DNA of 46,322 nt from Pirellulales bacterium. Its GTDB lineage: Bacteria; Planctomycetota; Planctomycetia; Pirellulales; UBA1268. The position numbers were made by a program, and so were the translations under genes. Under the pieces are notes generated by a model. It made no database searches and was not told where the DNA came from. It saw nothing but the letters and a program-made list of their open reading frames with translations. Below are positions 12,938 to 41,684 of this stretch, piece after piece. The DNA is taken from the NCBI GenBank assembly GCA_044346905.1, contig JBIIYH010000001.1:1-46322 (forward strand), given 5' to 3'. Numbering within the stretch: the stretch's first letter is position 1; every line of letters begins with the position of its first letter.

Positions 12938-14896
12938 TTAGTCGCCGGGGACCTCCTGCCCGCGGGCGAAGTCGAGCGCCTCCCGCATGCCCTCGGTCCG
13001 GAGCGGCTCCGGCACGTCCTCGATCACGGCGATCGCCTCGGGAAACCGGCCCGCCTCCACCAGCGCCATGACCAGGTTATGGCGGAGCTCGAGGCGGTCG
13101 GGATAGCGGTCGGCGGCGATCGCGAAGATGTCCACGGCATCGTCGAGCCGGCCTGTTTGGGCGTAGGCGGCCCCCAGGTTCTGGAGCACGTAGAGCCGCG
13201 CGGGGTTGGCGGCGACCGCCCGCTCGAAGCAGGCCGTGGCCGCCTCGATGTGGCCGAGTTGCCGCTCGGCCTCCCCCTCGAGGAAGGCGACCGGGACGGC
13301 CAGCGGGTCGAGCGTCCTCCACGGGGTCGCGGCCCGGCGGGCCGCCGCCCGCATCGCCTCCCAGTCGCCGGCATGCTGCGCCCGGCGGGCATCCATCACG
13401 CCGCGTTCCTGCTGGAGCGCCGCGCTGGCGTAGGCGATTCCCAGCGCCGTCGCCGCGGCGATCGGCGGCACCACGAGCCAGCCCGGCAGGCGGATCGGGG
13501 CGGCTGCGGCCGGTGTCGCCCGCGTCGCCTGCTTCAGGAGCACGAGCACCGCCAGGTGCACCGCCAGCACGACCTGATGGCTGACCCGGTCGAGCGGAAA
13601 GTCGAATACCGAGAAGACCAGATGGCCGACGAGGGCCGCCAGCGACGCGACCGCCAGGCGGGCGTCGGTGGTCGTGGGCGAGCCGGCGAGCACCCGCCGC
13701 ACCGCCGCCAGCGCCAGGATGAACACCGCACCGAAGGCCACGATCCCCGGCAGGCCCTTTTCGGCGAACACCCAGAGGAAGTCGTTGTGGGGCTGGATCC
13801 AGTTGTCACTCGACAGGTTCGTGAAGTCGCGCTGGCTACCCAACTCATCCGATCTGAAATAGTCGTGCATCCGGAGCGTGAAGTTGCCCGCCCCGACGCC
13901 CGTCAGCGGATGGTCGGCGATCATCTCGGCTGCGATTCCCCAGACCAGTGAGCGGCCGCCGTCGCTCGGGACTCCGGCCTGGTGCGGCCGCGAGACGACG
14001 AGCCGGTCGATCGTCCGGCCGAGCGGCGTGTCGGTCAGCGCCAGCCCGCCGCCGACCACCGCCGCGATCGGCACCGCTGACAGGCTCGCGATCAAGGCCC
14101 GCCGGCCCCCCTCCGGCAGGCCGAGCAACTGGCGGTGTCGCAGGATCGCGATCCCGCCGGCCACGAGCGCCGCCGCCGCCGCCAGCCAGGCTGCCCGCGA
14201 CTGGAGCACCGCCACCGTGCCGAGCGCGGCAATTCCGGCCGCGGCCGCGACGCCCCGCCAACCGCCGGTGAGCTCCACCGCGGCACACAGGCACCAGGGC
14301 AAGAGCAACAGCAGGAACCCCGCAAACAGGTTGACGTTCGACATCATTCCGTCCAGGAACGCGGTCTCGAGATCCCGCCGGGAGAGCGTGCCGGCGGCCA
14401 CGAGCGGCGTGATCTCCCAGGCAGCGACGGTGACGGCCACCAGCGTCCCAACCACCGCCAGTTCGAGCAAGCGGCGCCGCCAGCCAGGGTCGAGCGGCAG
14501 CACGAGCAGGCAGAGGCAGAGCACCAGAAACGCCCCGAGGGTCCGGAAGCCATCGGTGAACCCGGCGGTCACGTTGGTCGCCACCGAGAGCGAGAGCCAG
14601 CAGACCGCCAGCGAGGCGGCCGCGGCGAGGACGACCGGATCGGCCAGCGGCGACCAGTCGAGCCGCCGGGAGATCGGCGGCACGAGGAGCACCGTGGGCA
14701 CGGCGATCAGGAGCACCGCCATCACCGCCAGCAGCCGCGGTAACTGCGATACGTCGTAGGCGGCCGGATCGACGACGACGTGGAGCCCGACCAGGAGCAC
14801 CGCCAAGAGCAGCGTGGGCAGCAGGCCGGTCGTCGCCGGCTCCGCGTGGCCACTCGTCGACCGGAAGCGTTCCGGATGCCGGCGGCTGTGGCTCAT
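12938..14896 (-). CDS. O-antigen ligase-like (Wzy_C/WaaL family) polytopic membrane protein with C-terminal TPR repeats
   Basis: 652 aa with about 10 or more hydrophobic segments. A large loop carries HNDFLWVFAEKGLPG (Wzy_C-type H-N-x-x-L-x-x-x-x-E-x-G). The last ~150 aa form TPR-like repeats. Confidence 0.75.
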   Translation of the reverse strand: MSHSRRHPERFRSTSGHAEPATTGLLPTLLLAVLLVGLHVVVDPAAYDVSQLPRLLAVMAVLLIAVPTVLLVPPISRRLDWSPLADPVVLAAAASLAVCWLSLSVATNVTAGFTDGFRTLGAFLVLCLCLLVLPLDPGWRRRLLELAVVGTLVAVTVAAWEITPLVAAGTLSRRDLETAFLDGMMSNVNLFAGFLLLLLPWCLCAAVELTGGWRGVAAAAGIAALGTVAVLQSRAAWLAAAAALVAGGIAILRHRQLLGLPEGGRRALIASLSAVPIAAVVGGGLALTDTPLGRTIDRLVVSRPHQAGVPSDGGRSLVWGIAAEMIADHPLTGVGAGNFTLRMHDYFRSDELGSQRDFTNLSSDNWIQPHNDFLWVFAEKGLPGIVAFGAVFILALAAVRRVLAGSPTTTDARLAVASLAALVGHLVFSVFDFPLDRVSHQVVLAVHLAVLVLLKQATRATPAAAAPIRLPGWLVVPPIAAATALGIAYASAALQQERGVMDARRAQHAGDWEAMRAAARRAATPWRTLDPLAVPVAFLEGEAERQLGHIEAATACFERAVAANPARLYVLQNLGAAYAQTGRLDDAVDIFAIAADRYPDRLELRHNLVMALVEAGRFPEAIAVIEDVPEPLRTEGMREALDFARGQEVPGD

Positions 14897-15813
14897 CGCT
14901 CGTCTCGTCTTCCGTCAGCCCGCGGGCCGATCATGCTACCGAGTGGATCGAGTGTACCGCCGCCAGGGGCGAAAGGCCGCGGACGGAAGCCGAGCTCACG
15001 CCGAGCGGCGGCATGGTCGCACGACAGATCCTCATCCATCCGCCGACCCATGGCGACGGTGGCACCGCCGGCCAGGCCGAGCCACCGAGCGATCGTGGCG
15101 GCCAGGTTCCAGGCTGCGGGGGGTAGGCTGACCACCCGCGGCACGAGGCCGTGGGCCCGGCAGGTGCGGATGACCATCTCCCGATACGGCAGGGCTTCGC
15201 CCCCGGAAAGCTCATAGCGGCACCGCGGCGGGTGGCGGTCGAGGGCGGCCAAGCAGGCGGCCGCCACGTCGGCGGCGTGCACCGGCTGCCGCAGGCCGAG
15301 CGCCGGCCCGCACAAGGGGAACCAGCCGTGCCGGCGGACCCAGGCCGCGATGGCCGCCACGTTGCCGTCGGTCAGGCCGTCGTAGATCATCGTCGGCACG
15401 AGCAGCGTGAGGACGATTCCGCGGTCTTCGGCCCAGCCGTGCAGCTGGTCTTCGGCCGCGGCCAGCCGGCCGGCGACCTGGCGCTCGGCCGCGTCGGGCG
15501 ACGACGCCTTGGTGACGACGCTCATCGACGAGAGCGCCACGAGACGCTCGACGCCCGCCTGCTCGAGCCAGTCGAGCTGATCTGGCACCGCCCAGAGCGG
15601 GCAGAGCGCGATCCACTCTGGCAGGGGTCGCATCCCGGGCGGCATCGGGGAGCCGGTCTCGTGCCAGCGGACCTGATCAGCGGTCGCCGGCGCCTGCCGC
15701 TCGCGCCGCCGCGAACAGGCCAGCACGTCGCCGCGGCGGGCCAGCAGCGGCAGGAGTTGCCGCCCGACCAGGCTCCCGCCGCCGATCACTCCGACGCGGG
15801 GAGCCTCGTTCAT
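14893..15813 (-). CDS. NAD(P)-dependent epimerase/dehydratase-family (SDR) protein
   Basis: 306 aa from ATG 15813. Rossmann motif VGVIGGGSLVGRQL. The stop overlaps the downstream ligase start (ATGA at 14893-14896). Confidence 0.7.
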   Translation of the reverse strand: MNEAPRVGVIGGGSLVGRQLLPLLARRGDVLACSRRRERQAPATADQVRWHETGSPMPPGMRPLPEWIALCPLWAVPDQLDWLEQAGVERLVALSSMSVVTKASSPDAAERQVAGRLAAAEDQLHGWAEDRGIVLTLLVPTMIYDGLTDGNVAAIAAWVRRHGWFPLCGPALGLRQPVHAADVAAACLAALDRHPPRCRYELSGGEALPYREMVIRTCRAHGLVPRVVSLPPAAWNLAATIARWLGLAGGATVAMGRRMDEDLSCDHAAARRELGFRPRPFAPGGGTLDPLGSMIGPRADGRRDER

Positions 15814-15832
15814 GACGGCAGGATGACGGTGC

Positions 15833-16891
15833 TCATGAGGGGAGCGTCGTCGGGGTGGCGACTCGCGCATCGAGAACCGTTTCCCGGACATGCCAGGCCG
15901 GGGCCGCATCGCCCGGGACGCGCTCGCGGGGCATCCTGGCCGCGACGACCGCCTGCCGGGTGGCCACGAGCGCGAACCGGAGCCAGACCCCGGCCACCAC
16001 CAGGCCGAACAGGCCGGCCGGATAGGTGCGGCGGAAGTGCTTTGTGTAAAAGCGGATCATGCCCCGATGCTTGTGCCATTCGACTGCCAGGGGGCGAGAC
16101 CGGCCGCACAAGCCGCGGTGATGGATGGCCGGGGCGTCGGGCACGAACAGGATCTTCCAACCGGCCTCGCGGAACCGGAGGCAGAGATCGAGATCCTCGC
16201 AGTGGAGGAAGTAGCCCTCGTCCCACGGGCCCACCGCGGTGAACGCCTCGCGAGACACCATCGTGAGCGCGCCCGAGACGGCCTCGACCTCGATCGGCGC
16301 GGTCGGCAGCGGCTCCTGATGGAGATGGAAGTCGGAGAACCAGCGGGGGGCGAGCCAGGCCAGTCGCCGCAGGCCGAAGCCCCGCACGAACGACCGCCAG
16401 GGCGTCGGAATGCTCCGTCTGGCACCTCCCTGCTCGCGTCCCCCGACGTCGGTGAGCAGCCCGCCGACCATCCCAACCCGGTCTCCTGACCCTAGCGCAG
16501 CGTGCAGCGCGGCCAGCGATCCCGGTCCAAGGATGCAGTCGGGATTCAGGAACAGAAGCGTCGGCTGGTCGGCGCGAGCCGCTCCGAGGTTACAGCCCGC
16601 GGCGAAGCCGGTGTTCACGCGGGAGCGGAGGATCGTGAGCCGAGGATGGGTGGCGAAGCGGGCCGCTACCGCCTCGAAGGGCACCGGCGCTGAGGCGTTG
16701 TCCACCAGGATCACCTGGCAGGCCTGTGCGAGCGCTGCCTCGAGGCAGTTGGCCAAGAGTTGGCCCGCGTTGTGATTGACGATGACGATGCTCGCCGGCA
16801 CGAGGCCACGGCCAGCGTCGGCCCGATCGGCCGGCGGGCTCAGCGACCCCGGCGAACCGGGCCGAACTCGACCATGCTGAGAACTCGCCAT
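15833..16891 (-). CDS. family 2 glycosyltransferase
   Basis: Contains SIVIVNHNAGQLL..CL, VILVDNAS, TGFAAGCN, FLNPD and CEDLDLCLR (the E-D-x-D-L motif of rhamnosyltransferase-like GT2). Start is ATG 16891 (52-nt overlap with the upstream gene) or GTG 16801. Confidence 0.85.
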   Translation of the reverse strand: MASSQHGRVRPGSPGSLSPPADRADAGRGLVPASIVIVNHNAGQLLANCLEAALAQACQVILVDNASAPVPFEAVAARFATHPRLTILRSRVNTGFAAGCNLGAARADQPTLLFLNPDCILGPGSLAALHAALGSGDRVGMVGGLLTDVGGREQGGARRSIPTPWRSFVRGFGLRRLAWLAPRWFSDFHLHQEPLPTAPIEVEAVSGALTMVSREAFTAVGPWDEGYFLHCEDLDLCLRFREAGWKILFVPDAPAIHHRGLCGRSRPLAVEWHKHRGMIRFYTKHFRRTYPAGLFGLVVAGVWLRFALVATRQAVVAARMPRERVPGDAAPAWHVRETVLDARVATPTTLPS

Positions 16892-17841
16892 GTGGAAACC
16901 CGCCGGGCAGCCTGCACGATTCGTCGCTTTTGCCAGCACCGGCCAAGTCCGGCCACGGCATCCCGCTTCGCGCGGAGGAACGCAGATCCCCGGCCCCGGC
17001 AGCCGAGGATCACCATCCCCAGGATAGATTGGGAAAGATGCGCAAGCAAAGCGACCGGTAAAACCGGTCCAGGCGTGTTTTTGACGAGCGTCCAGACCAG
17101 GTTTCGGTGGCCGAAATAGGTGGCGAACTGGCCCGTGGAACTCGCTCCGCCGACGTGCTCCACGACCGCGTCGGGGACGGAGCGGGCCGCGTGGCCGGCC
17201 AGCCTGAGCCGGAACCCGAGGTCGACGTCCTCGCCGTAGCAAAAATAGTCCTCGTCGAAGCCCCCGGCGGCGATCACGGCCTGTCGCCGATAAAGCGCCG
17301 CGGCGGCGCAGGCGGAGAAGATCTCCCGGGCCTCGAGGTCGGCCGGCCGTAGCGGCCGGCCGTGGCCATCCCGCCACGCCAGGCCGCTTGCGTGCCAGCG
17401 GTCACCGATGCCGTCGAGCATCCCCGGCCGGCCGGTGAGCATTTGCCGCGAGCCGAACGCGGCGCACTCGGGGTAGGCGGCGGCGGCGGCGACGAGCGCC
17501 TCGAGCCAGCGCGGTTCCGGAAAGGCGTCGGGATTGAGCAGCGCCACCAGTTCCGTGTCGGCGGCCGCGATCCCGCGATTCGAGCCGGCCGCGAAGCCCA
17601 GATTTTCACTCGTGGCGTCGATCGTGGTCCGCTCGGCAAGCTCCGGCCGGGATGCGACGAACTCGCGGCAGGCCGCGAGCGAGCCGTCGGTGCTGCCATT
17701 GTCAACCAGCACGATCCGCTCGGGCGGCACCGTCTGTGCGGCCAGGCTCTCCAGGCAACGGAGCACGTGGGCTCCGCCGTTGAAGTTGACGATCACGACG
17801 GTCGCGCGGGCCTGGTCACCCGCCGCAAACGAGGCGTTCAT
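16840..17841 (-). CDS. family 2 glycosyltransferase
   Basis: 333 aa. Contains TVVIVNFNGG..L..CL.SL, IVLVDNGSTDGS, LGFAAGSN, LLNPD and GEDVDLGFRL. Confidence 0.88.
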   Translation of the reverse strand: MNASFAAGDQARATVVIVNFNGGAHVLRCLESLAAQTVPPERIVLVDNGSTDGSLAACREFVASRPELAERTTIDATSENLGFAAGSNRGIAAADTELVALLNPDAFPEPRWLEALVAAAAAYPECAAFGSRQMLTGRPGMLDGIGDRWHASGLAWRDGHGRPLRPADLEAREIFSACAAAALYRRQAVIAAGGFDEDYFCYGEDVDLGFRLRLAGHAARSVPDAVVEHVGGASSTGQFATYFGHRNLVWTLVKNTPGPVLPVALLAHLSQSILGMVILGCRGRGSAFLRAKRDAVAGLGRCWQKRRIVQAARRVSTWRVLSMVEFGPVRRGR

Positions 17842-21039: not shown

Positions 21040-21295
21040 TGGGTCGCCTCCGCCGCGCGGTCGATCTCGCCGCGATCTTTCCAGCCCGGCGGATGGGCGT
21101 CAACGCCGGCCCGGGCCGCCTCTGGCCCGCACGCATCCCAACCTGTGCCTGCCCCGTGAACAGCCCAGCCTCTGCCCGTTCCATGAACCGCCGGGTTCGG
21201 CGGCGACCTTGACCTCGGTCGCCCGGGCCGTGTACCAGCCCCTGGCAGGCCCGCCCCGTTCAGGGCGACCGTTCTTCCCGCGCGAGTGTCACGGC

Positions 21296-34884: not shown

Positions 34885-35415
34885 TCAGCCGACCAGGAGC
34901 GGGGCCGCGGCGTCCCGCGGGGAGAGCACGGGCGGGGCGGCCAGCGGCCACTGGATCGCCAGGGTCGGGTCGTCCCACCGGAGGCACTTTTCACAGCCCG
35001 GGGCGTAGAAGTCGGTGGTCTTGTAGAGGACGTCGGCCGATTCGGAGAGCACGAGAAATCCGTGAGCCAGACCCTCGGGCACCCAGAGTTGGCGGCGGTT
35101 TTCCGCCGAGAGCTCCACCCCCACCCAGTGGCCGAAGGTCGGGGAGCCGGGCCGGATGTCGGCGGCCACGTCGAAGATCGCACCGGCCAACGCGCGGACG
35201 AGTTTCCCCTGCGGATGAGGCTCCTGGTAATGCAGCCCGCGGAGCACGTGGCGACGGCTGGTGCTCTGGTTGTCCTGGACGAAGGCCACCTCCCACCCGA
35301 CCGCCGCGGCGAAGGCCCGGGCGTTGAAGCTCTCGAAGAACGAGCCGCGGTCGTCGGCGAACACCCGCGGCTCGAGCACGAGCACGCCGGGGATCTCGGT
35401 GGGCGTCACCTGCAT
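34885..35415 (-). CDS. rfbC: dTDP-4-dehydrorhamnose 3,5-epimerase
   Basis: 176 aa. Contains F.D.RG.F.E.F, LRGLHYQ, KLV and WVPEG.AHGF, the canonical RmlC cupin. Confidence 0.95.
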
Positions 35416-37232: not shown

Positions 37233-38104
37233 GCGGCGGCGTCCGGTCGGGGCGGGGGGTCAGGCCGGCGGTAGTCGCCGCGGCTGAAATACTTCTCCAG
37301 CCAGACATAGGCCACGATGAAGAAGTAGCGGCTGCCCATCTCGCGGATCTTGAGCTTGGCGATCCCGGTGCGGCGGTTCCGCCAGGTGATCGGGATCACC
37401 GTCCAGGTATAGCCGCGGACGATCGCCTTGAGGGGTAGTTCGACCGTGATGTTGAAGTGTGGCGAGAGGATCGGCAAGCAGCCTTCGATCACCTCGCGGC
37501 GGTAGGCCTTGAAGGCGTTGGTCGTGTCGTTGAGCCGGATCCGAAACAGCACCTTCACGAACCAGTTGGCCATCCGGTTCAGGAACAGCTTCACGCGGGG
37601 GTAGTCGATCACGCCGCCCCCCTTCATGAAGCGGCTGCCGAACACGCAGTCCCAGCCCTGCTCCAGCTTCTGCCAATAGCGGACGACGTCGCGGGCGTCG
37701 TCGCTCTCGTCGGCCATCATGATCACGACCGCGTCGCCAGTGAACGCGGCCAGGCCCCGCTGGATCGCCCGCCCGAACCCGTGGGGTCCGGGGTTCTTCA
37801 CTGGGGCAAGCTCCGGGATCCGCTCGGCCGTCTCGCTGAGCAGCCGCCAGGTCGAGTCGGTCGAGCCGTCGTCCACCACCACGATCTCGTGCGGCACCCC
37901 CTGCATTCGCAACTCGAGATGGAGGTGCTCGACCGTGGAGACGATGCAGCCCTCCTCGTCGCGGGCCGGGATCACGACCGAGAGTTTGTGGAGCTGGCGG
38001 AACGGCGGAGTGGCAGCCTGCTCCGGCAGCGCAGCCGCCGGCCCACCGGTCGCCGCCTGCTCAGCCGCCGCAGCGGTCGAGCCAGCCGGGGTGTCGTTCG
38101 GCAT
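37229..38104 (-). CDS. GT2 polyprenyl-phosphate glycosyltransferase (GtrB/ArnC/DPM1-like)
   Basis: Contains LSVVIPARDEE, VVVDDGSTDST, IMMADESDD and a C-terminal hydrophobic helix after KLKIREMGSRYFFIV. Start taken at ATG 38104 (44-nt overlap with the upstream gene). ATGA overlap with rfbD. Confidence 0.8.
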   Translation of the reverse strand: MPNDTPAGSTAAAAEQAATGGPAAALPEQAATPPFRQLHKLSVVIPARDEEGCIVSTVEHLHLELRMQGVPHEIVVVDDGSTDSTWRLLSETAERIPELAPVKNPGPHGFGRAIQRGLAAFTGDAVVIMMADESDDARDVVRYWQKLEQGWDCVFGSRFMKGGGVIDYPRVKLFLNRMANWFVKVLFRIRLNDTTNAFKAYRREVIEGCLPILSPHFNITVELPLKAIVRGYTWTVIPITWRNRRTGIAKLKIREMGSRYFFIVAYVWLEKYFSRGDYRRPDPPPRPDAAA

Positions 38105-39149
38105 GGTCGGCGATCTCCTCGAAAATCCGCTCGGGCGGGCGGGCGGGTTGCCAGCCATACCGCTCGGTCGCGGCCGCATGATCGAGCACGACCCAGGGGA
38201 GGTCGTAGGGCCGAGTCGCAGGGCTGGCTCCCACATCATGGGGTCCCAGTCGCGTGCGGCACCAGACCGACAGCTCGGCCAGGCTCGTGCCGCTCGGCGC
38301 ACCGCCGGAGGCGTGGACGAGCTCCGGCTGGCCGCCCCGGGCCGCGGCCACCTGCAGCAGCAACAACTCGGCCAGGTCGTCGGGGTGGAGGCAGTCGCGG
38401 ACCTGCAGGCCCCGGCCGCCGAAGCCGATGAAGGAGAGCGGCTGGCGGGCCGCCCAGCGGTGGATCCACCAGGAGAAAATCCCCTGATCGGCCCGGCCGA
38501 ACTGGCCCGCGCCAGCCATCACTCCGCAGCGGTCGATCACCAGCGGCGTGCCGGCGGCGTGGGCGTATTCGAGGGCCAGCGTCTCGCCGGCGAGCTTCGT
38601 CGCGCCGTACAGCGAGACAGGCGCGGCCGTGGAAAAGCCCGCGGCGATCCCGGCGGCCGAGAGGCCCGCTGGCAGCGGCCGCGTGTCGTCGAGCCTGAAG
38701 GCCGGGCCGCCGTCGCGACCGGCTCGCTCCACGAGCGGCAGTTCGCAGAGCGCCGGAATCGAATACACGCGGCTGGTGCTCAGGAGCACGACCCCCGCCT
38801 GCCAGGCCGCCGCGGCCTCGAGCAGGTTCACGGTGCCGGTGAGGTTGTGATCCACGAGCTGGCGGCGACCCGTATGCCCGCCGGCAGCGGTGCCCGCCAA
38901 CACGCTCGGCTCGGCCGCCGCGTCGATCACCCAGTCGAACGGCCCCAGGGCCTCGAGGTCGGCCGCCAGGCGGACGTCGCCGTGGACCACGCGGACGCCG
39001 CGAGCCTCGAGATCGGCCACGTTGGTCTCGCTGCCGCGGCGGCGGAGGCTGTCGAGCACGGTGACCGCGAGGCCGGTACGGGCCTGGAGAAACCGCCGGC
39101 AGATCGCCGCCCCCACGAACCCGCAGCCGCCGGTGACGAGGATCTTCAT
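38061..39149 (-). CDS. NAD-dependent epimerase/dehydratase (extended SDR)
   Basis: 362 aa. Contains MKILVTGGCGFVG and a YGATKLAGE catalytic Y-x-x-x-K. Substrate unknown. Confidence 0.85.
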   Translation of the reverse strand: MKILVTGGCGFVGAAICRRFLQARTGLAVTVLDSLRRRGSETNVADLEARGVRVVHGDVRLAADLEALGPFDWVIDAAAEPSVLAGTAAGGHTGRRQLVDHNLTGTVNLLEAAAAWQAGVVLLSTSRVYSIPALCELPLVERAGRDGGPAFRLDDTRPLPAGLSAAGIAAGFSTAAPVSLYGATKLAGETLALEYAHAAGTPLVIDRCGVMAGAGQFGRADQGIFSWWIHRWAARQPLSFIGFGGRGLQVRDCLHPDDLAELLLLQVAAARGGQPELVHASGGAPSGTSLAELSVWCRTRLGPHDVGASPATRPYDLPWVVLDHAAATERYGWQPARPPERIFEEIADHAERHPGWLDRCGG

Positions 39150-39158: not shown

Positions 39159-40226
39159 TCAGGTGGCGTGGGCCCGGCGGCCGTGGGCCTCGACGATCTG
39201 GTCGAAGGTCTCGCCGAGCGAGATCTCCGGCCGCCAGCCGGGGTAGTCGGCCTGCATCCGCCGGAGGTCCGAGTAGTAGCAGATGTGGTCGCCGGCCCGC
39301 GACTGCTCATCGTAGACATAGTCCATCGGCTTGCCCGTGCGGGCGGCCGCCAGTTCGAAGGCCTCGAGGATCGAGCACGAGTTTTCCTTGCCGCCGCCGA
39401 TGTTGTAGACGGCCGCGGGCCGCGGGGCGGCGATGAACCGGGCGATGAATGCGGCCACGTCGGCGGCGTGGATGTTGTCGCGGACCTGCTTGCCCTTGTA
39501 GCCGAACACGGTGTACCGGCGGCCTTCGAGGTTGCACTTCACGAGGTAGCTCAAAAAGCCGTGCAGCTCCACGCCCGAGTGGGCCGGGCCCGTCAGGCAG
39601 CCCCCCCGCAGGCAGCAGGTGGGCATCCCGAAGTAGCGGCCGTACTCCTGCACCATCACGTCGGCCGCCACCTTCGAAGCCCCGAATAGCGAGTGCTTGC
39701 TCTGGTCGATGCGGAACGACTCCGGGATCCCGTGGGCAAAAGTCTCGTCGGCGTAGTCCCAGCGGGTGGCGAGCTCGACCAGCGGGATCTCGTTGGGGGC
39801 ATCGCCGTAGACCTTGTTGGTACTCATGTGCACGAAGGGGCTCTCGGGGCAGGCCCGGCGGGCGGCCTCCAGGAGATTGAGCGTGCCGACGGCGTTGGTG
39901 TCGAAGTCGTCGAAGGGGATCGCCGCCGCGCGGTCGTGGGAAGGCTGGGCGGCCGTGTGGACGATCGCCGCGGGCTGCACCTCGGCGACGAGCGCCAGCA
40001 CCCCGGAACGGTCGCGGATGTCGAGCTCGTGGTGGCGAAAGCTCGTGAGCGAGGCCGCCAGCCGCTCCTGGTTCCACCGCGTGTCGCCGGCGGGCCCGAA
40101 GAACACCGCCCGTTGGTTGTTGTCGACGCCATGCACCTCCCAGCCGAGGCCGTCGAAGTGGCTCGCCACCTCGCTGCCGATCAGGCCCGAGGATCCGGTC
40201 ACGAGGATTTTTTGTCGTGTCGTCAC
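39159..40226 (-). CDS. NAD-dependent epimerase/dehydratase (extended SDR, CDP-paratose-2-epimerase-like)
   Basis: GTG start at 40226 ([18 protein letters not shown]). Contains STNKVYGD and [11 protein letters not shown] (S...Y/K catalytic context). The track ORF start at 40343 is an upstream extension. Confidence 0.85.
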
Positions 40227-40294
40227 GGTGTCACTCTCTGCGATCCCGAGTGGAACCTCAACAAGCCAAAACCGCCGGACGGGGGCACGTGCTC

Positions 40295-40370
40295 GCCGCC
40301 GGCGGATTTTGACATTGCACACTCCGCTCGCATGGTAAGCCAACTCTTCCAGTCAAAATGCACCGGCGGC
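40295..40370. promoter_or_regulatory. 19-bp imperfect inverted repeat with a 38-nt spacer in the 5' region of the SDR gene
   Basis: GCCGCCGGCGGATTTTGAC (40295-40313) versus GTCAAAATGCACCGGCGGC (40352-40370), 17 of 19 complementary. Each arm carries a TTGAC hexamer-like sequence facing outward. Confidence 0.4.
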
Positions 40371-40430: not shown

Positions 40431-40561
40431 GGGGTCGCCCCTGCCCCGGAGCCGGCCTAGCCAACAAGCGTAGCCAGGGATGGCGAAGCGCAGTTGGCTC
40501 GGAGTGAGCGAAGGGCAGGATGCCCGCAGCGAACGTCCGGCGATGGGGCAGGGGCGACCCC
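40431..40561 (+). repeat. palindromic intergenic repeat, copy C (131 bp, two modules)
   Basis: Perfect 17-bp terminal inverted repeat GGGGTCGCCCCTGCCCC / GGGGCAGGGGCGACCCC. The internal sequence is collinear with copy B (GAGCCGGCCT...GGGCAGGATGCCCGCAGCGA.CGTCCGGCGA). Confidence 0.85.
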
Positions 40562-40613
40562 GACCGGCCAGTTGACGTCGCTTCGGTCACGCTCCAGCGA
40601 TTTCCGCGATCCA

Positions 40614-41684
40614 TCACGATGGGGACTCCGCGGCGTAGTGCTTGCCGACCCACTCCCGATACCCGCCGCTCGTCACGTCGGCCACCCAGGCGGCGTGGTC
40701 GAGGTACCAGCGGACGGTCTTCCTGAGGCCGGTCTCGAAGGATTCGCTCGGCCGCCAGCCGAGCTCGGCGGTGATCTTGGCGTGGTCGATCGCGTAGCGG
40801 CGGTCGTGGCCCGGCCGGTCGGTCACGAACGTGATCTGGGTGGCGTAGGGCTGGCCATCGGCCCGGGGATGCTCCTCGTCGAGGATCCGGCAGAGAGCCC
40901 TGACCACGTCGATGTTGGCCAGCTCGCTCGAGCCGCCGATGTTGTAGACCTCGCCCGGCCGGCCCGCCTCCAAGACCCGCCGGATGGCGGTGCAGTGGTC
41001 GGCCACGTAAAGCCAGTCGCGGACCTGTCGGCCGTCGCCGTAGATCGGCAGCGGCTCGCTGGCCACGGCCCGATGGATGCACAGCGGGATCAGCTTCTCG
41101 GGGAACTGCCAGGGGCCGTAGTTGTTGGAGCAGTTGGTGGTCACGACCGGCAGGCCGAAGGTGTGGTGATGGCCGCGGACCAAGTGGTCGCTGGCCGCCT
41201 TGGTGGCGGCGTAGGGGCTGTTGGGCCGGTACTGGGTCGTCTCGGAGAAGGGCGGGTCATCCGGGGCGAGCGTGCCATAGACCTCGTCGGTCGAGACGTG
41301 CAGAAACCGGAAGGCCGTGCGGTCGGCCGCCGGGAGGCTCGTCCAGTGGGCTCGGGCCGCCTCCAAGAGCCGAAACGTCCCCACCACATTGGTCTCGACA
41401 AAGTCCTCGGGCCCGTGGATCGAGCGATCGACGTGGCTCTCGGCGGCGAAGTGGACGATCGCCCGGATACCGTGCTCGGCCAGGAGCCGCTCGACGAGTT
41501 CCCGGTCACTGATGTCGCCCCGCACGAAGGTGTGCCGCGGGTCGCCTGCCAAGCTCGCGAGGTTCGCCAGGTTGCCGGCGTAGGTGAGCTTGTCGAGATT
41601 CACCACCGGCTCGTCGGAGGCGGCGAGCCAGTCGAGCACGAAGTTTGAGCCGATGAAGCCGGCGCCGCCGGTGACGAGGATCAT
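40614..41684 (-). CDS. rfbB: dTDP-glucose 4,6-dehydratase
   Basis: 356 aa. Contains MILVTGGAGFIGSNFV, DKLTYAGN, HFAAESHVDRSI and YAATKAASDHL, canonical RmlB. Confidence 0.96.
   Translation of the reverse strand: MILVTGGAGFIGSNFVLDWLAASDEPVVNLDKLTYAGNLANLASLAGDPRHTFVRGDISDRELVERLLAEHGIRAIVHFAAESHVDRSIHGPEDFVETNVVGTFRLLEAARAHWTSLPAADRTAFRFLHVSTDEVYGTLAPDDPPFSETTQYRPNSPYAATKAASDHLVRGHHHTFGLPVVTTNCSNNYGPWQFPEKLIPLCIHRAVASEPLPIYGDGRQVRDWLYVADHCTAIRRVLEAGRPGEVYNIGGSSELANIDVVRALCRILDEEHPRADGQPYATQITFVTDRPGHDRRYAIDHAKITAELGWRPSESFETGLRKTVRWYLDHAAWVADVTSGGYREWVGKHYAAESPS

What the first reader, a model, noticed from the sequence alone, without database searches (positions are those of the whole stretch)
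12938..41684. ~29-kb surface-glycan locus with the full parts list of an ABC-transporter-dependent pathway, predicted to make a sulfated, methylated, rhamnose-containing polymer
**Seen: contiguous genes**
- WaaL-like ligase-TPR.
- Three SDR enzymes.
- Three stand-alone GT2s, one of them GtrB/ArnC-like.
- wzm-wzt.
- Two sulfotransferase modules and two WbsX modules.
- One GT2 and one GT4 module inside the giant ORF.
- Two methyltransferase modules.
- Two large polytopic membrane proteins.
- rfbB, rfbD, rfbA and rfbC.

**Organisation**
- Genes from 41684 down to 23814 are all on the minus strand.
- Several ATGA/TGATG overlaps occur (37229-37232, 27106-27109, 26084), consistent with long co-transcribed units.

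**Not seen**
- No initiating polyprenyl-phosphate hexose-1-phosphate transferase (WecA/WbaP-type), Wzx, Wzy or Wzz.

**Inference**
- Polymerisation occurs on the cytoplasmic face, export by Wzm/Wzt and ligation by the WaaL-like protein.
- Biosynthesis of sulfated glycans is rarely described in bacteria. In a planctomycete-like genome the product could be an O-antigen, a capsule-like layer or a holdfast or fibre polysaccharide.
Basis: partly seen in the sequence, partly recalled or inferred. Interest (0 to 1): 0.7.

Follow-up and report, generated by a model that had tools for sequence, protein, structure and literature searches.

The report
Planctomycete sulfated surface-glycan gene cluster
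This is a real 29-kb gene cluster from an uncultured planctomycete (Pirellulales) that builds a rhamnose-based cell-surface sugar polymer inside the cell and pumps it out; it is mostly ordinary, except that its giant polymerase carries a sulfate-adding enzyme at the far end of a long coiled-coil 'ruler', the position where known systems place the enzyme that stops chain growth.

Summary
**Observation: confirmed.** Every listed module is present between hisI (12437-12931) and a PTPS gene (41879-42532).
- RmlA/B/C/D all pass NCBIfam equivalog cut-offs.
- Wzm and a short Wzt (246 aa, no carbohydrate-binding module, CBM) are present.
- No Wzx, Wzy, Wzz or initiating transferase was found in the window.

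**Interpretation: supported, but it missed the anatomy.**
- The giant protein (corrected to 28557-34742, 2061 aa) reads sulfotransferase, ~264-aa coiled coil, WbsX, GT2, GT4, methyltransferase. This is the terminator-ruler-polymerase layout of Klebsiella WbbB and O7 ORF6.
- A paralogous stand-alone sulfotransferase-coiled-coil protein (19537-21039) mirrors the split WbdD format.
- Both sulfotransferase modules keep the PAPS-binding motifs.
- In Pseudomonas, Vibrio and Rhizobiales, homologous giants sit directly after a CBM-bearing Wzt. The planctomycete Wzt has no CBM.
- Both polytopic proteins model as GT-C-like enzymes (weak Foldseek support), one with a CBM-like domain. With the polyprenyl-phosphate-sugar-synthase-like GT2, this suggests periplasmic side-chain addition.
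- The 'WbsX' modules are distantly GH99-like.

**Context.** The locus is syntenic in Pirellulales MAGs, with conserved arms and a variable centre.

**Verdict.** A new variant of a known kind. No chemistry was tested, and a 2019 bioinformatic census I could not read may already list such terminators.

The parts
12938..14896 (-). Wzy_C-family (WaaL/O-antigen-ligase-like) polytopic protein with a C-terminal TPR domain, 652 aa. Candidate ligase; acceptor unknown.
   Evidence: Pfam Wzy_C at residues 221-388, 70 bits; TPR at 530-630. About 13 hydrophobic segments. PDB sequence hits fall only on the TPR part. Conserved next to hisI in Pirellulales MAGs L026 (80% identity) and L012 (59%).
14893..15909 (-). 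Weak SDR / NAD-binding protein, 338 aa, function unassigned.
   Evidence: Pfam Epimerase E 3.5e-6, covering residues 112-225 only. Homologues lie beside the GT2a/GT2b homologues in L012, L026 and a Pseudomonas MAG, L019 (44%).
15833..16891 (-). Stand-alone GT2 ('GT2a'). The start is uncertain: GTG 16801 or ATG 16891. Candidate adaptor-forming transferase.
   Evidence: Pfam Glycos_transf_2. Weak NCBIfam hit to the WbbL-type rhamnosyltransferase subfamily TIGR01556, E 3.6e-10, below cut-off. Start candidates are listed.
16840..17841 (-). Stand-alone GT2 ('GT2b'), 333 aa.
   Evidence: Pfam Glycos_transf_2, 85 bits. NCBIfam hits are all below cut-off.
17862..18803 (+). Wzm, the ABC-2 permease of the glycan exporter. 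The true start is probably downstream of 17862.
   Evidence: Pfam ABC2_membrane. Best NCBIfam hit is the galactan-export Wzm model, E 1.9e-64, below cut-off, matching from residue 55.
18808..19548 (+). Wzt, the nucleotide-binding subunit, 246 aa, with no C-terminal carbohydrate-binding module.
   Evidence: Pfam ABC_tran only. Best NCBIfam hit is the galactan-export Wzt model, E 1.6e-74. The Wzt proteins of planctomycete relatives are 242-247 aa.
19537..21039 (-). Stand-alone sulfotransferase plus coiled-coil protein, 500 aa. The sulfotransferase module is 20428-21009 and the coiled coil 19540-20250. Paralogue of the giant's N-terminus.
   Evidence: Sulfotransfer_3, 29.4 bits against a cut-off of 27. 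It is 40% identical to the giant over 463 aa, E 1e-66. PAPS-binding motifs are conserved. A proline-free stretch spans residues 264-500, and its 3.5-residue hydrophobic periodicity was matched by 0 of 2000 shuffles (LIVMF set).
21293..23095 (+). A 600-aa protein with about five N-terminal 'NPDV...HY..GW.EGR.P' repeats followed by a WbsX (GH99-like) domain at 21983-22996.
   Evidence: Pfam Glyco_tran_WbsX E 2.5e-133. The WbsX domain is 64% identical to the giant's. The start was inferred from third-position GC and sequence. In relatives L001 and L003 this position holds a 1439-1442-aa WbsX-GT2-GT4 protein.
23123..23836 (+). Conserved 237-aa protein of an uncharacterised domain family, always found next to the WbsX gene.
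   Evidence: No Pfam, NCBIfam or PDB match. The family has 1075 representative clusters. Elsewhere it is fused to GT2/GT4 or RgpF rhamnan-synthesis modules. Present in L001, L003-L006, L009, L015 and L083.
23814..26084 (-). A 756-aa membrane protein: TM1, a periplasmic CBM-like beta-sandwich (~residues 36-175), then a GT-C-like multi-helix domain. Candidate periplasmic glycosyltransferase. Belongs to the variable part of the locus.
   Evidence: AF2 model with pLDDT 89.7 and pTM 0.91. Foldseek against PDB gives no hit at E<1e-3. The membrane part best matches GT-C enzymes: AglB 3wak, ArnT 5f15, DPY19 7zlg and PglB 5ogl, probability 0.99-1.0. The beta-sandwich matches CBM4, CBM35 and CBM32. Present in L004 and L005 but absent from L001, L003 and L083.
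26084..27109 (-). DUF4214 plus class-I methyltransferase (Methyltransf_24), 341 aa.
   Evidence: Pfam. About 84-85% identical in L001, L004, L005 and L008.
27106..28527 (-). A 473-aa polytopic membrane protein restricted to this clade. Candidate GT-C-like enzyme, with an invariant Asp in a 'WSDDFD' loop after TM1.
   Evidence: Only 32 homologues were found and none has a Pfam domain. AF2 model with pLDDT 85.8 and pTM 0.87. The only high-probability Foldseek matches are GT-C enzymes (EmbA/B 7bvf at 0.98, AglB 3wak at 0.98, DPY19 at 0.75), but E is 0.012 or worse and TM-scores are 0.34-0.45. D56 is invariant.
28557..34742 (-). Giant 2061-aa multi-module protein. Modules in order: sulfotransferase (34119-34712), coiled coil (33183-33974), WbsX/GH99-like (31830-32846), GT2 (30975-31469), GT4 C-terminal half (29463-29921), methyltransferase (28764-29027).
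   Evidence: Pfam hits. Corrected start. A proline-free stretch of 264 aa has its periodicity peak at exactly 3.5 residues, matched by 0 of 2000 shuffles. Homologues at 43-99% identity keep the same module order.
34885..35415 (-). rmlC, dTDP-4-dehydrorhamnose 3,5-epimerase.
   Evidence: TIGR01221, 251 bits against a cut-off of 155.75.
35406..36299 (-). rmlA, glucose-1-phosphate thymidylyltransferase.
   Evidence: TIGR01207, 500.7 bits against a cut-off of 360.65.
36333..37232 (-). rmlD, dTDP-4-dehydrorhamnose reductase.
   Evidence: TIGR01214, 326.7 bits against a cut-off of 224.05.
37229..38104 (-). GT2 of the polyprenyl-phosphate-sugar-synthase type (GtrB/ArnC/DPM1-like), ~291 aa, with no TM segment.
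   Evidence: Best NCBIfam hits are AglJ, Dol-P-hexose transferase, PgfS and ArnC, E 1e-13 to 3e-17, all below cut-off. No TM segment was predicted. Embedded in the rml operon in all relatives.
38061..39149 (-). Extended SDR, 362 aa. Its closest solved relative is CDP-tyvelose 2-epimerase.
   Evidence: PDB 9rl0 E 3.3e-21 and 1orr E 2.7e-18. Pfam Epimerase.
39159..40343 (-). Extended SDR, 394-aa ORF (domain from residue 45). Its closest solved relative is CDP-tyvelose 2-epimerase.
   Evidence: PDB 9rl0 E 5.4e-37 and 1orr E 3.1e-32. Pfam Epimerase E 3.4e-42.
40614..41684 (-). rmlB, dTDP-glucose 4,6-dehydratase.
   Evidence: TIGR01181, 487 bits against a cut-off of 365.1.

Best explanation
**What it is.** The region between hisI and PTPS is the surface-glycan (O-antigen-type) locus of an uncultured Pirellulales planctomycete. 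It works by the ABC-transporter-dependent route.

**Proposed steps.**
1. *Shown by family membership:* RmlABCD make dTDP-L-rhamnose.
2. *Inferred:* A phosphoglycosyltransferase encoded elsewhere primes undecaprenyl phosphate, and the two small GT2s next to wzm-wzt build an adaptor.
3. *Inferred from architecture:* The 2061-aa giant polymerises the chain in the cytoplasm with its GT2 and GT4 modules, possibly also with its WbsX module. Its N-terminal PAPS-type sulfotransferase is held about 260 residues of coiled coil away from them. As in WbbB, Klebsiella O7 ORF6 and WbdD, it modifies only chains that have grown long enough, most likely capping the non-reducing end with sulfate. O-methylation would come from the C-terminal methyltransferase and/or the DUF4214-methyltransferase protein.
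4. *Inferred:* The stand-alone sulfotransferase-coiled-coil paralogue, the WbsX protein and the 237-aa protein form a second, split copy of the same device.
5. *Shown by family, and the missing CBM is shown directly:* Wzm and a CBM-less Wzt export the lipid-linked polymer. Export is therefore not gated by recognition of the cap.
6. *Inferred, weakest step:* In the periplasm, the two GT-C-like membrane proteins add side residues from a polyprenyl-phosphate sugar. The GtrB/DPM1-like GT2 would make that donor from a nucleotide sugar tailored by the two tyvelose-epimerase-like SDRs.
7. *Inferred:* The Wzy_C-TPR protein transfers the finished glycan to its acceptor, which is lipid A-core or a protein.
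For: **Parts list and boundaries.**. All four Rml proteins are above equivalog cut-offs.

**Sulfotransferase modules.**
- Both score above the Pfam cut-off.
- Invariant GMHRSGTS, K-D-P-R and R-x-P-x5-S motifs are present.
- The profile hits only PAPS sulfotransferases in the PDB; CurM/OLS ST scores E 5e-9.

**Coiled coils.**
- The proline-free runs are 264 and 237 aa.
- The hydrophobic periodicity of 3.5 residues beats all 2000 shuffles (for the stand-alone protein, with the LIVMF residue set), while a GT2 control region shows none.
- A long proline-free stretch recurs at the same position in most listed homologues: 219-350 aa in the nearest relatives (P0001-P0011) and up to 463 aa in more distant ones.

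**Fit to published systems.**
- PMC11231755 states that in all characterised systems the terminator sits at the distal end of a coiled-coil ruler, in either fused (WbbB, O7 ORF6) or split (WbdD, O4) formats. This locus contains both formats.
- In Pseudomonas PH1b, a Pseudomonas MAG, a Vibrio and a Rhizobiales genome, a Wzt carrying Wzt_C lies immediately upstream of the homologous giant. The distantly related ST-GT2-GT4-MT giant of Lyngbya PCC 8106 likewise lies in a cluster with wzm and a CBM-bearing wzt, separated from wzt by two methyltransferase genes.

**Modular reuse.** The sulfotransferase-coiled-coil module is combined with different polymerase modules in different organisms: WbsX, GT2, GT4, RgpF and WsaF.

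**Synteny.** Several Pirellulales and Planctomycetota contigs share the flanks and arms but differ in the centre.

**GT-C-like models.**. GT-C plus CBM is the pattern of the three-component systems described in PMC11127046.
Against: - **No CBM on Wzt.** PMC11231755 says every terminated O-polysaccharide studied so far has a CBM-bearing Wzt. This Wzt and those of its planctomycete relatives lack one. That weakens the 'cap' reading for this particular locus.
- **No chemistry.** Nothing distinguishes terminal from per-repeat sulfation.
- **Two candidate cappers.** The methyltransferases could be the cappers instead of the sulfotransferases.
- **Missing genes.** No PAPS-synthesis genes, no initiating transferase and no lipid-sugar flippase lie in the window. 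The Vibrio KMM 8419 authors regard co-located PAPS genes as a hallmark of sulfated-glycan clusters.
- **Weak GT-C evidence.** All Foldseek E-values are above 1e-3 and TM-scores are 0.23-0.45.
- **GtrB-like assignment.** It rests on sub-threshold best hits, and the protein has no TM helices.
- **Unknown WbsX role.** Its nearest solved relatives are GH99 hydrolases, not transferases.
- **Possible decay of the second device.** It lacks the GT2-GT4 modules that its counterpart has in relatives.
Confidence: 0.6

Rival explanations
1. The pathway is the same, but the sulfotransferases decorate residues all along the chain, giving a polyanionic sulfated rhamnan like the Vibrio KMM 8419 capsule. On this reading the coiled coil is only an oligomerisation or scaffold element, and chain length is set by the balance of polymerase and exporter, as in CBM-less systems.
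For: - Wzt has no CBM. Published capped systems always have one.
- A per-repeat Rha3S polymer made with rml genes, an ABC transporter and sulfotransferases is documented in Vibrio sp. KMM 8419.
- Two sulfotransferases and two methyltransferases in one locus look more like decoration than a single cap.
Against: - The sulfotransferase sits N-terminal to a ~260-aa coiled coil, at the far end from the GT modules. This position is kept in most of the listed ST-bearing homologues.
- The proteobacterial homologues have a directly adjacent CBM-bearing Wzt, and the Lyngbya giant shares its cluster with one.
- A decorating enzyme has no obvious need to be held 30 nm or more away from the polymerase.
Confidence: 0.3
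2. The glycan is not an LPS O-antigen but is attached to protein, as an S-layer-type or other envelope glycoprotein. On this reading the Wzy_C-TPR protein acts as an O-oligosaccharyltransferase, as WsaB does in the Geobacillus stearothermophilus poly-rhamnan S-layer glycan pathway. This changes only the last step of the best explanation.
For: - Wzy_C is shared by WaaL, Wzy and O-oligosaccharyltransferases. Nothing beyond the Pfam domain assigns this protein to WaaL.
- The TPR part resembles the protein-binding TPRs of O-GlcNAc transferase.
- From my own knowledge, the Geobacillus slg cluster also combines rml genes, wzm-wzt, a methyltransferase-rhamnosyltransferase fusion and a Wzy_C transferase.
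Against: - No acceptor protein gene is evident in the locus.
- Homologous giants in Vibrio sit in the usual O-antigen position next to rml-wzm-wzt.
- A WbsX-type giant in Burkholderia gladioli is genetically tied to LPS O-antigen.
Confidence: 0.3
3. The locus makes two different glycans, or a block co-polymer. One product would come from the fused giant. The other would come from the split set (sulfotransferase-coiled coil, WbsX protein and 237-aa protein, perhaps with GT2a and GT2b). Both would share one exporter.
For: - The sulfotransferase-coiled coil and WbsX modules are duplicated at 40% and 64% identity.
- Relatives have a full second polymerase, WbsX-GT2-GT4 of 1439-1442 aa, at that position.
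Against: - In this window the second WbsX protein has no Leloir GT module.
- There is only one exporter and one ligase candidate.
- L083 lacks the second sulfotransferase-coiled-coil protein altogether.
Confidence: 0.2
4. One or both of the unassigned polytopic proteins is a divergent Wzy polymerase or Wzx flippase. In that case part of the assembly is Wzy-dependent rather than ABC-transporter-dependent.
For: - Wzy and Wzx proteins are notoriously divergent and often lack Pfam hits.
- Both proteins have 10 or more TM segments.
Against: - The confident AF2 models match GT-C enzymes rather than MOP flippases. MFS and other transporter matches have probability of about 0.2 or less.
- One protein carries a CBM-like periplasmic domain.
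- Wzm-Wzt and processive multi-module GTs are present.
Confidence: 0.05

Closest known systems
WbbB of Klebsiella pneumoniae O12 / Raoultella terrigena, and ORF6 of K. pneumoniae O7 (single-protein terminator, coiled-coil ruler and polymerase; PMC11231755)
   Same: - An N-terminal chain-modifying enzyme, a long coiled coil and C-terminal GT modules sit in one polypeptide.
- The product is rhamnose-containing.
- The gene lies beside wzm-wzt in an ABC-transporter-dependent cluster.
   Different: - The distal enzyme here is a PAPS-type sulfotransferase, not a Kdo transferase or a methyltransferase-kinase.
- Extra WbsX (GH99-like) and C-terminal methyltransferase modules are present.
- The partner Wzt has no CBM.
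- Nothing has been tested biochemically.
WbdD/WbdA of E. coli O9a / K. pneumoniae O3 (split terminator-ruler and polymerase; PMC3482155, PMC11231755)
   Same: The stand-alone sulfotransferase-coiled-coil protein (19537-21039) has the WbdD format: a catalytic head followed by a coiled coil, encoded next to separate polymerase-type genes.
   Different: - The head is a sulfotransferase, not a kinase-methyltransferase.
- No C-terminal amphipathic helix or polymerase-recruitment site could be identified.
- The neighbouring WbsX protein lacks Leloir GT modules in this strain.
Sulfated capsule cluster of Vibrio sp. KMM 8419, product ->2)-a-L-Rhap3S4Ac-(1->6)-a-D-Glcp-(1-> (PMC11641403)
   Same: It combines rml genes, glycosyltransferases (including RgpF), an ABC transporter and sulfotransferases. 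It is documented evidence that bacteria make sulfated rhamnose polymers.
   Different: - It uses a Kps-type capsule exporter.
- cysNDC (PAPS) genes lie inside the cluster.
- The sulfotransferases are stand-alone, and no coiled-coil fusion is described.
- Sulfate is on every repeat.
Three-component periplasmic glycosylation systems (Gtr of Shigella/Salmonella; Citrobacter youngae ORF12-15, GT136; PMC11127046)
   Same: - A polyprenyl-phosphate-sugar-synthase-like GT2 is paired with GT-C-like membrane proteins.
- One of those proteins has an extracytoplasmic CBM-like domain.
- Auxiliary epimerase-type genes lie nearby.
   Different: - No flippase gene is in the locus.
- The GT-C assignment rests on weak structural matches.
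- Neither membrane protein has sequence similarity to a described GT-C family.
- The donor sugar is unknown.
S-layer glycan (slg) cluster of Geobacillus stearothermophilus NRS 2004/3a (from my own knowledge, not checked here)
   Same: An ABC-transporter-dependent poly-L-rhamnan with an O-methyl cap. It has a multi-module methyltransferase-rhamnosyltransferase (WsaE), rml genes and a Wzy_C-family transferase (WsaB).
   Different: - It is Gram-positive and the acceptor is an S-layer protein.
- It has no sulfotransferase, no WbsX and no GT-C candidates.
Aeromonas salmonicida wbsalmo O-antigen cluster (PMC4483657)
   Same: A sulfotransferase-domain ORF lies between a 438-aa Wzt and a WbbB-like multi-module polymerase, with an ArnT-like membrane protein nearby.
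   Different: - The sulfotransferase is a short 216-aa stand-alone protein with no coiled coil reported.
- No sulfate was found in the published O-antigen structure.

Membership tests
ABC-transporter-dependent glycan (O-antigen-type) assembly locus | ABC-2 permease (Wzm) and cognate ATPase (Wzt) encoded together | tested here: met
   ABC2_membrane and ABC_tran hits. Best NCBIfam models are the galactan-export Wzm and Wzt (E 1.9e-64 and 1.6e-74), though both are below the equivalog cut-offs.
ABC-transporter-dependent glycan (O-antigen-type) assembly locus | No Wzx flippase, Wzy polymerase or Wzz co-polymerase | tested here: met
   No such Pfam family appears anywhere in the window. The two unassigned membrane proteins model as GT-C-like, not MOP or Wzy. 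The Wzy_C-TPR protein could formally be a Wzy.
ABC-transporter-dependent glycan (O-antigen-type) assembly locus | Cytoplasmic, often multi-module, polymerising glycosyltransferases | tested here: met
   The giant carries WbsX, GT2 and GT4 modules and no convincing TM domain.
ABC-transporter-dependent glycan (O-antigen-type) assembly locus | Initiating polyprenyl-phosphate phosphoglycosyltransferase (WecA/WbaP type) | tested here: not met
   None is present in the 46-kb window. In enterobacterial prototypes wecA also lies outside the cluster, so absence is not disqualifying. The rest of the genome could not be searched.
Capped-glycan systems (terminator + coiled-coil ruler + CBM-Wzt; Mann et al. 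2019, PMC11231755) | [quoted passage not shown] | tested here: met
   Proline-free runs of 264 and 237 aa with 3.5-residue periodicity, matched by 0 of 2000 shuffles (for the stand-alone protein, with the LIVMF residue set). Weak Pfam and NCBIfam crescentin, filament and SMC hits support this.
Capped-glycan systems (terminator + coiled-coil ruler + CBM-Wzt; Mann et al. 2019, PMC11231755) | A chain-terminating enzyme at the end of the coiled coil distal to the polymerase modules | tested here: inconclusive
   A sulfotransferase occupies exactly that position in both proteins. Whether it terminates chains cannot be tested in silico.
Capped-glycan systems (terminator + coiled-coil ruler + CBM-Wzt; Mann et al. 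2019, PMC11231755) | Carbohydrate-binding module (Wzt_C) on the transporter ATPase | tested here: not met
   Wzt is 246 aa and consists of ABC_tran only. Planctomycete relatives have 242-247-aa Wzt proteins. The CBM is present beside homologous giants in Pseudomonas, Vibrio and Rhizobiales, and in the cluster of the related Lyngbya giant.
PAPS-dependent sulfotransferase (Pfam PF13469, Sulfotransfer_3; the NodH family) | Score above the Pfam gathering threshold | tested here: met
   37.3 and 29.4 bits against a threshold of 27. The family profile hits only sulfotransferases in the PDB.
PAPS-dependent sulfotransferase (Pfam PF13469, Sulfotransfer_3; the NodH family) | 5'-phosphosulfate-binding loop and 3'-phosphate-binding R...S motif | tested here: met
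   Invariant G-M-H-R-S-G-T/M-S and R134-x-P136-x5-S142 across 21 sequences, including both window modules. The RxG-type PSB is as described for NodH in PMC11625862.
PAPS-dependent sulfotransferase (Pfam PF13469, Sulfotransfer_3; the NodH family) | A cellular source of PAPS (cysDN/cysC or equivalent) | not testable with these tools
   These genes are not in the window, and the rest of the genome is unavailable.
dTDP-L-rhamnose pathway (RmlABCD) | All four enzymes present and above curated equivalog cut-offs | tested here: met
   RmlA 500.7 against 360.65; RmlB 487 against 365.1; RmlC 251.3 against 155.75; RmlD 326.7 against 224.05.
Three-component periplasmic glycosylation (synthase + flippase + GT-C) | Polyprenyl-phosphate sugar synthase (GtrB/ArnC/DPM1-type GT2) | tested here: inconclusive
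   The best NCBIfam hits are of this type (E 3e-17 to 3e-13) but are far below cut-offs, and there are no TM helices.
Three-component periplasmic glycosylation (synthase + flippase + GT-C) | Small flippase (GtrA, SMR or MATE type) in the locus | tested here: not met
   No such Pfam hit was found, and no intergenic space is large enough for an extra gene.
Three-component periplasmic glycosylation (synthase + flippase + GT-C) | GT-C-fold membrane glycosyltransferase with an acidic residue in the first periplasmic loop | tested here: inconclusive
   The AF2 models are confident (pTM 0.87 and 0.91). The only high-probability Foldseek hits are GT-C enzymes, but E is above 1e-3 and TM-scores are 0.23-0.45. 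D56 is invariant in 'WSDDFD' after TM1 of the 473-aa protein.
WaaL O-antigen ligase | Wzy_C domain in a protein with 10 or more TM segments | tested here: met
   Wzy_C at 70 bits and ~13 hydrophobic segments. This feature is shared with Wzy and O-oligosaccharyltransferases.
WaaL O-antigen ligase | Transfer to lipid A-core (acceptor specificity) | not testable with these tools
   No solved WaaL or PglL matched by sequence. The C-terminal TPR domain is not a feature of characterised WaaL proteins, as far as I know.
Glycoside hydrolase family 99 (considered for the 'WbsX' modules) | Sequence-profile similarity and the catalytic Glu pair of the N-E-W-x-E-G motif | tested here: inconclusive
   The WbsX profile hits only GH99 structures, and weakly (5ngw E 3.7e-4; 5lyr and 4ad1 E 4e-3 to 9e-3). 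The alignment runs through the invariant NAWNEWAEG motif. Activity is untested, so these modules are not filed as GH99 members.

The most novel reading that the evidence does not exclude
**Sulfate as a chain-terminating cap.**
- Sulfation would be a chain-terminating cap in ABC-transporter-dependent glycan assembly.
- A PAPS sulfotransferase mounted at the distal end of a coiled-coil ruler would be a terminator chemistry that has not been demonstrated experimentally.
- It is spread across Planctomycetota, Pseudomonas, Vibrio, Rhizobiales, Chloroflexi and cyanobacteria.
- In proteobacteria and cyanobacteria a CBM-bearing Wzt would read the cap. The planctomycete version has dropped the CBM checkpoint, so length control and export are uncoupled.

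**Corollary for WbsX.** The ubiquitous 'WbsX' module of these polymerases would be a GH99-like TIM-barrel enzyme acting on manno-configured (rhamnose) residues, not a Leloir glycosyltransferase.
Probability: 0.35. Interest if true: 0.7.

Novelty: new variant of a known kind. Interest (0 to 1): 0.5.

Why it matters
**If the architecture means what it means in Klebsiella and E. coli:**
- Sulfate joins methyl, methyl-phosphate and Kdo as a signal that ends glycan chains.
- The family is broad enough to test in tractable organisms such as cultured Pseudomonas and Vibrio isolates.
- It would explain 'orphan' sulfotransferase genes in O-antigen clusters whose published structures show no sulfate. 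A single terminal sulfate per chain is easy to miss; Aeromonas salmonicida is an example.

**For planctomycetes:**
- The composition of their surface polymers is largely unknown.
- This locus gives a concrete, testable prediction of a rhamnose-based, sulfated and methylated surface glycan.
- The variable centre of the locus suggests strain-level antigenic diversity.

**It also flags uncharacterised components of bacterial glycan machinery:**
- Two clade-specific GT-C-like proteins.
- A 237-aa domain family with about a thousand sequence clusters.
- The GH99-like WbsX module.

**If none of this holds,** the locus is an ordinary, well-formed polysaccharide gene cluster.

Tried and rejected
- **Organism lookup.** The listing of cluster members for five window proteins timed out. 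The organism was identified from the genome scan instead.
- **Literature on 'WbsX'.** The hits were mostly filarial antigens. Searches for PF14307 and 'GH99-like' gave nothing functional. Only a Burkholderia gladioli phage-resistance paper links a WbsX-type giant to O-antigen.
- **Literature on sulfotransferase terminators.** No paper in the library combines sulfotransferase, coiled coil and chain termination.
  - The two most relevant papers are not held: the Whitfield 2020 review and the Mann, Kimber & Whitfield 2019 census in Glycobiology.
  - I therefore cannot exclude that sulfotransferase terminators were already predicted there.
- **Unassigned proteins.** Sequence searches of the PDB, and Pfam at E up to 10, for the two membrane proteins and the 237-aa protein found nothing. 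A 52-sequence profile of the 237-aa family also found nothing in the PDB.
- **WaaL candidate.** A PDB search returned only TPR matches.
- **Antisense ORFs.** ORF 19609-20958(+) has coding-like third-position GC but no family hit, while its opposite strand carries the sulfotransferase. It was rejected as spurious. The N-terminal 197 residues of ORF 20702-23095 and 147 residues of ORF 28557-35183 were rejected as read-through of non-coding or overlapping sequence.
- **PAPS genes in a homologous cluster.** The Vibrio cluster L030 was checked and has none. Only a housekeeping cysE lies in its flank.
- **Wzy-dependent reading.** Rejected; see the rival explanations.

Full report
**Gene calling.** The window is about 70% GC, so mechanical ORF lists are full of spurious frames. 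I picked frames by third-position GC and scanned them against Pfam and NCBIfam.

**Boundaries.**
- The glycan locus is bounded by housekeeping genes.
- On the left is hisI (PRA-CH, 12437-12931, +), preceded by a BamB-like gene, an aquaporin, a peroxiredoxin, bioD, feoAB and groEL.
- On the right are a PTPS-family gene (41879-42532, +), hemB, a MoCF gene and a class II aminoacyl-tRNA synthetase.

**Check of the observation.**
- *Ligase candidate and SDRs:* a Wzy_C + TPR protein with about 13 hydrophobic segments (12938-14896) and three SDRs (14893-15909 weak; 38061-39149; 39159-40343).
- *Stand-alone GT2s:* there are three. The one at 37229-38104 has its best NCBIfam hits to AglJ, Dol-P-hexose transferase, PgfS and ArnC.
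- *Exporter:* wzm-wzt at 17862-19548.
- *Modification and GT modules:* two Sulfotransfer_3 and two WbsX modules; GT2, GT4 and methyltransferase modules in the giant ORF; and a DUF4214-Methyltransf_24 protein.
- *Membrane proteins:* two ~10-TM proteins without any family hit.
- *Rhamnose genes:* rmlB, rmlD, rmlA and rmlC, all above NCBIfam equivalog cut-offs.
- *Organisation:* the strand statement and the ATGA/TGATG overlaps are correct, and there is another overlap at 14893-14896.
- *Absences:* no WecA/WbaP, Wzx, Wzy or Wzz family hit occurs in the whole window.

**Corrections.**
- The giant most likely starts at the ATG at 34742, giving 2061 aa. The longer ORF runs across rmlC.
- The second WbsX gene most likely starts at 21293, giving 600 aa, and is divergent from the second sulfotransferase gene.
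- The GtrB-like GT2 is about 291 aa, as its orthologues are called.

**Organism and conservation.**
- The giant has a 99%-identical counterpart in a JGI metagenome and relatives of 43-76% identity with the same module order.
- In species-representative genomes the nearest hits are Pirellulales/Planctomycetota MAGs at 60-88% identity. 'Planctomycete-like' is therefore correct.
- Contigs from this clade share the right flank (tRNA synthetase, MoCF, hemB, PTPS).
- They also share the right arm: rmlB, SDR, SDR, GT2, rmlD, rmlA, rmlC, giant.
- Others share the left flank (hisI) and the left arm: Wzy_C-TPR, weak SDR, GT2, GT2, wzm, wzt, sulfotransferase-coiled coil, WbsX.
- The centre differs between contigs.
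  - L001 and L003 have a 1439-1442-aa WbsX-GT2-GT4 protein where the window has only a 600-aa WbsX protein.
  - They also carry extra methyltransferases and a PhyH gene.
  - L083 has a 1022-aa acyltransferase and no second sulfotransferase.
  - The 756-aa membrane protein is present only in the window, L004 and L005.
- Conserved arms (precursor genes and exporter) around a variable centre between housekeeping genes is the classic layout of an O-antigen-type serotype locus. GC is a few points lower over 23-27 kb.

**The giant protein.**
- In 2061-aa numbering, the modules are: sulfotransferase (11-208), proline-free stretch (257-520), WbsX (633-971), GT2 (1092-1256), GT4 (C-terminal half, 1608-1760) and methyltransferase (1906-1993).
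- The proline-free stretch is rich in A, E, R and L. Its hydrophobic periodicity peaks at exactly 3.5 residues and exceeds all 2000 shuffles. A GT2 control region shows no such signal.
- It also draws weak crescentin, filament and SMC hits. I read it as a coiled coil of roughly 260 residues.
- The stand-alone 500-aa protein at 19537-21039 is a paralogue. It is 40% identical over 463 aa, with the same sulfotransferase head and a 237-residue proline-free tail with heptad periodicity.
- The two WbsX domains are 64% identical.

**Are the sulfotransferases real?**
- Both score above the Pfam threshold.
- An alignment of 21 family members, including both window modules, shows invariant GMHRSG(T/M)S (5'-phosphosulfate loop), K-D-P-R and R-x-P-x5-S. 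The last has the Arg-Ser spacing of the classical 3'-phosphate motif.
- The profile finds only PAPS-dependent sulfotransferases in the PDB: the OLS and CurM sulfotransferases at E 5e-9 to 9e-9, tyrosylprotein sulfotransferases at about 2e-8, and mycobacterial Stf-type proteins.
- PF13469 is also the family of NodH (PMC11625862).
- The sequence features needed to bind PAPS are therefore conserved in both modules. Activity and PAPS supply remain untested.

**What the architecture resembles.**
- Kelly et al. 2024 (PMC11231755) summarise the characterised ABC-transporter-dependent O-antigen systems.
  - The polymerase modules are either in the same polypeptide (WbbB of O12, ORF6 of O7) or in separate proteins (WbdD/WbdA of O3/O9a, O4).
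  - In every terminated example Wzt carries a CBM that recognises the cap.
- The window contains both formats with a sulfotransferase in the terminator position.
- The sulfotransferase-coiled-coil module is combined with different polymerase modules in other organisms: WbsX, GT2, GT4, RgpF and WsaF-type GT4. A long proline-free stretch recurs at the same position in most listed homologues, 219-350 aa in the nearest relatives and up to 463 aa in more distant ones.
- Most tellingly, four genomes have a Wzt with a Wzt_C CBM (452-494 aa) immediately upstream of the homologous giant, overlapping it. These are Pseudomonas sp. PH1b, a Pseudomonas MAG, Vibrio sp. 10N.261.45.E2 and a Rhizobiales genome.
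- The Vibrio cluster reads rmlBADC-wzm-wzt-giant.
- The distantly related ST-GT2-GT4-MT giant of Lyngbya sp. PCC 8106 lies in a cluster with wzm and a CBM-bearing wzt, with two methyltransferase genes between wzt and the giant.
- Of ten non-planctomycete loci with a sulfotransferase-type giant and a detectable Wzt, seven have a long Wzt.
- This is the signature of capped-glycan systems.

**The main caveat.** The window's Wzt is 246 aa with no CBM, and so are the Wzt proteins of its planctomycete relatives at 242-247 aa. Either the cap is not proof-read at export in this clade, or the sulfotransferases here decorate the chain rather than cap it. I cannot separate these readings in silico. I give the cap reading moderate weight and keep per-repeat sulfation as the main rival. 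A per-repeat Rha3S polymer is documented in Vibrio sp. KMM 8419, where PAPS genes are inside the cluster (PMC11641403). They are not inside this one.

**The two membrane proteins.**
- Neither has a Pfam, NCBIfam or PDB sequence match.
- The 473-aa protein (27106-28527):
  - It belongs to a small clade-restricted family of 32 hits.
  - Its AF2 model is confident, with pLDDT 85.8 and pTM 0.87.
  - The only high-probability Foldseek matches are GT-C enzymes: EmbA/B, AglB and DPY19. However, E is 0.012 or worse and TM-scores are 0.34-0.45.
  - An invariant Asp sits in a 'WSDDFD' loop just after TM1, where GT-C enzymes carry their catalytic acid.
- The 756-aa protein (23814-26084):
  - It belongs to a wider family of 83 hits that includes Pseudoduganella, Methylococcales and Chlorobium. 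One member is named 'Glycosyltransferase Rgt...' by UniRef.
  - Its model has pLDDT 89.7 and pTM 0.91.
  - The model shows TM1, a beta-sandwich that matches CBM4, CBM35 and CBM32, and a helical bundle that best matches AglB, ArnT, DPY19 and PglB at probability 0.99-1.0 with E 0.008-0.04.
- GT-C plus CBM is the pattern of the periplasmic side-chain transferase of the three-component systems (PMC11127046).
- A polyprenyl-phosphate-sugar-synthase-like GT2 lies in the rml operon. It is preceded by two SDRs whose closest solved relative is CDP-tyvelose 2-epimerase (E 5e-37 and 3e-21). Together these suggest post-export glycosylation from a lipid-linked donor.
- This is the weakest step of the model. 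No flippase is in the locus, the GT2 has no TM helices and only sub-threshold hits, and the fold matches are not statistically strong.

**WbsX.**
- No solved structure matches the WbsX domain by single-sequence search.
- A 41-sequence profile hits only GH99 endo-alpha-mannosidase-type structures, and weakly (5ngw E 3.7e-4; 5lyr and 4ad1 E 4e-3 to 9e-3). The alignment runs through the invariant NAWNEWAEG motif, which corresponds to the GH99 FNEWHEG motif.
- From my own knowledge, the two Glu residues in that GH99 motif are the catalytic pair, and the mechanism uses the axial 2-OH of manno-configured sugars. L-rhamnose is 6-deoxy-L-mannose.
- The annotation 'glycosyltransferase' therefore appears untested; I found no functional study of the domain. 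The only functional link I found is genetic: phage-resistant Burkholderia gladioli mutants map to a >1454-aa 'WbsX' protein in a wzm-wzt O-antigen cluster (PMC13391952).

**The 237-aa protein (23123-23836).**
- It always accompanies the WbsX gene in the relatives.
- It has no Pfam or PDB match.
- It belongs to a family of about 1075 sequence clusters.
- Elsewhere it is fused to GT2/GT4 or RgpF (rhamnan synthesis) modules.
- It is probably another catalytic or accessory part of rhamnan-type polymerases.

**The ligase candidate.**
- Assignment rests on the Wzy_C domain, which is shared by WaaL, Wzy and O-oligosaccharyltransferases.
- PDB matches fall only on the TPR part, which resembles the TPRs of O-GlcNAc transferase.
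- The acceptor, lipid A-core or a protein, is open.

**Verdict.**
- The locus is a well-formed ABC-transporter-dependent surface-glycan cluster, which is a known kind.
- Several features make it a new variant rather than just another member:
  - sulfotransferases mounted on coiled-coil rulers in both fused and split formats;
  - the missing CBM on Wzt;
  - two unclassified GT-C-like proteins;
  - the GH99-like modules.
- Novelty is limited by two things. Nothing is shown chemically, and a 2019 bioinformatic census of terminator chemistries that I could not access may already list sulfotransferase terminators.

Noticed in passing
window 23123-23836 (+); homologues P0236-P0385: This 237-aa protein belongs to a large family of about 1075 clusters at 50% identity, with no Pfam model and no PDB relative. 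In other bacteria the domain is fused to GT2/GT4 polymerase-type proteins or to RgpF rhamnan-synthesis modules. It looks like an undescribed domain of rhamnan-type glycan polymerases.
   Followed up: partly
window 31830-32846 (-) and 21983-22996 (+): The 'WbsX glycosyltransferase' domain (PF14307) has GH99 endo-mannosidase-type structures as its only detectable solved relatives. The similarity is weak. The motif NAWNEWAEG is invariant and aligns with the GH99 FNEWHEG motif. The transferase annotation appears untested.
   Followed up: partly
window 21293-21980 (+): The N-terminus of the 600-aa WbsX protein carries about five tandem ~35-residue repeats of the pattern 'F/Y D..WY...NPDV...G..PL.HY...GW.EGR.P'. 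They have no Pfam hit. The DUF4214 domain of the neighbouring methyltransferase may be a related short module.
   Followed up: no
L017, L019, L025, L030 (Pseudomonas, Rhizobiales, Vibrio); L082 (Lyngbya PCC 8106): Cultured or named bacteria carry homologous sulfotransferase-coiled-coil-polymerase giants. In the four proteobacterial loci the giant lies directly after a CBM-bearing wzt; in Lyngbya the related giant shares a cluster with one, separated by two methyltransferase genes. These organisms are tractable for testing whether sulfate is a chain-terminating cap.
   Followed up: partly
literature: PMC4483657 (Aeromonas salmonicida wbsalmo cluster): A 216-aa sulfotransferase-domain ORF lies between Wzt (438 aa) and a WbbB-like polymerase, yet the published O-antigen structure contains no sulfate. 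A single terminal sulfate per chain would be easy to miss.
   Followed up: no
window 23000-27000: GC content dips to 0.67-0.68, against 0.70-0.73 on either side. The dip covers the part of the locus that differs between relatives (the 756-aa GT-C-like gene and the DUF4214-methyltransferase). This is compatible with exchange of the variable centre.
   Followed up: no
window 19609-20958 (+): A 449-aa antisense ORF on the opposite strand to the sulfotransferase-coiled-coil gene has coding-like GC at codon positions 1 and 3 but no family hit. It is an artefact of high GC and the Ala/Arg/Glu-rich coiled coil, and a trap for gene callers.
   Followed up: yes
window 38061-40343 (-): Two adjacent paralogous SDRs both have CDP-tyvelose 2-epimerase as their closest solved relative. 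They sit between rmlB and the GtrB-like GT2 in every relative. They may make a C2-epimeric 6-deoxy-hexose donor, but the substrate is unknown.
   Followed up: partly
window 19537-19548 and 23814-23836: Two convergent gene pairs overlap at their 3' ends: wzt with the sulfotransferase-coiled-coil gene, and the 237-aa gene with the 756-aa gene. This leaves no room for intrinsic terminators between them.
   Followed up: no
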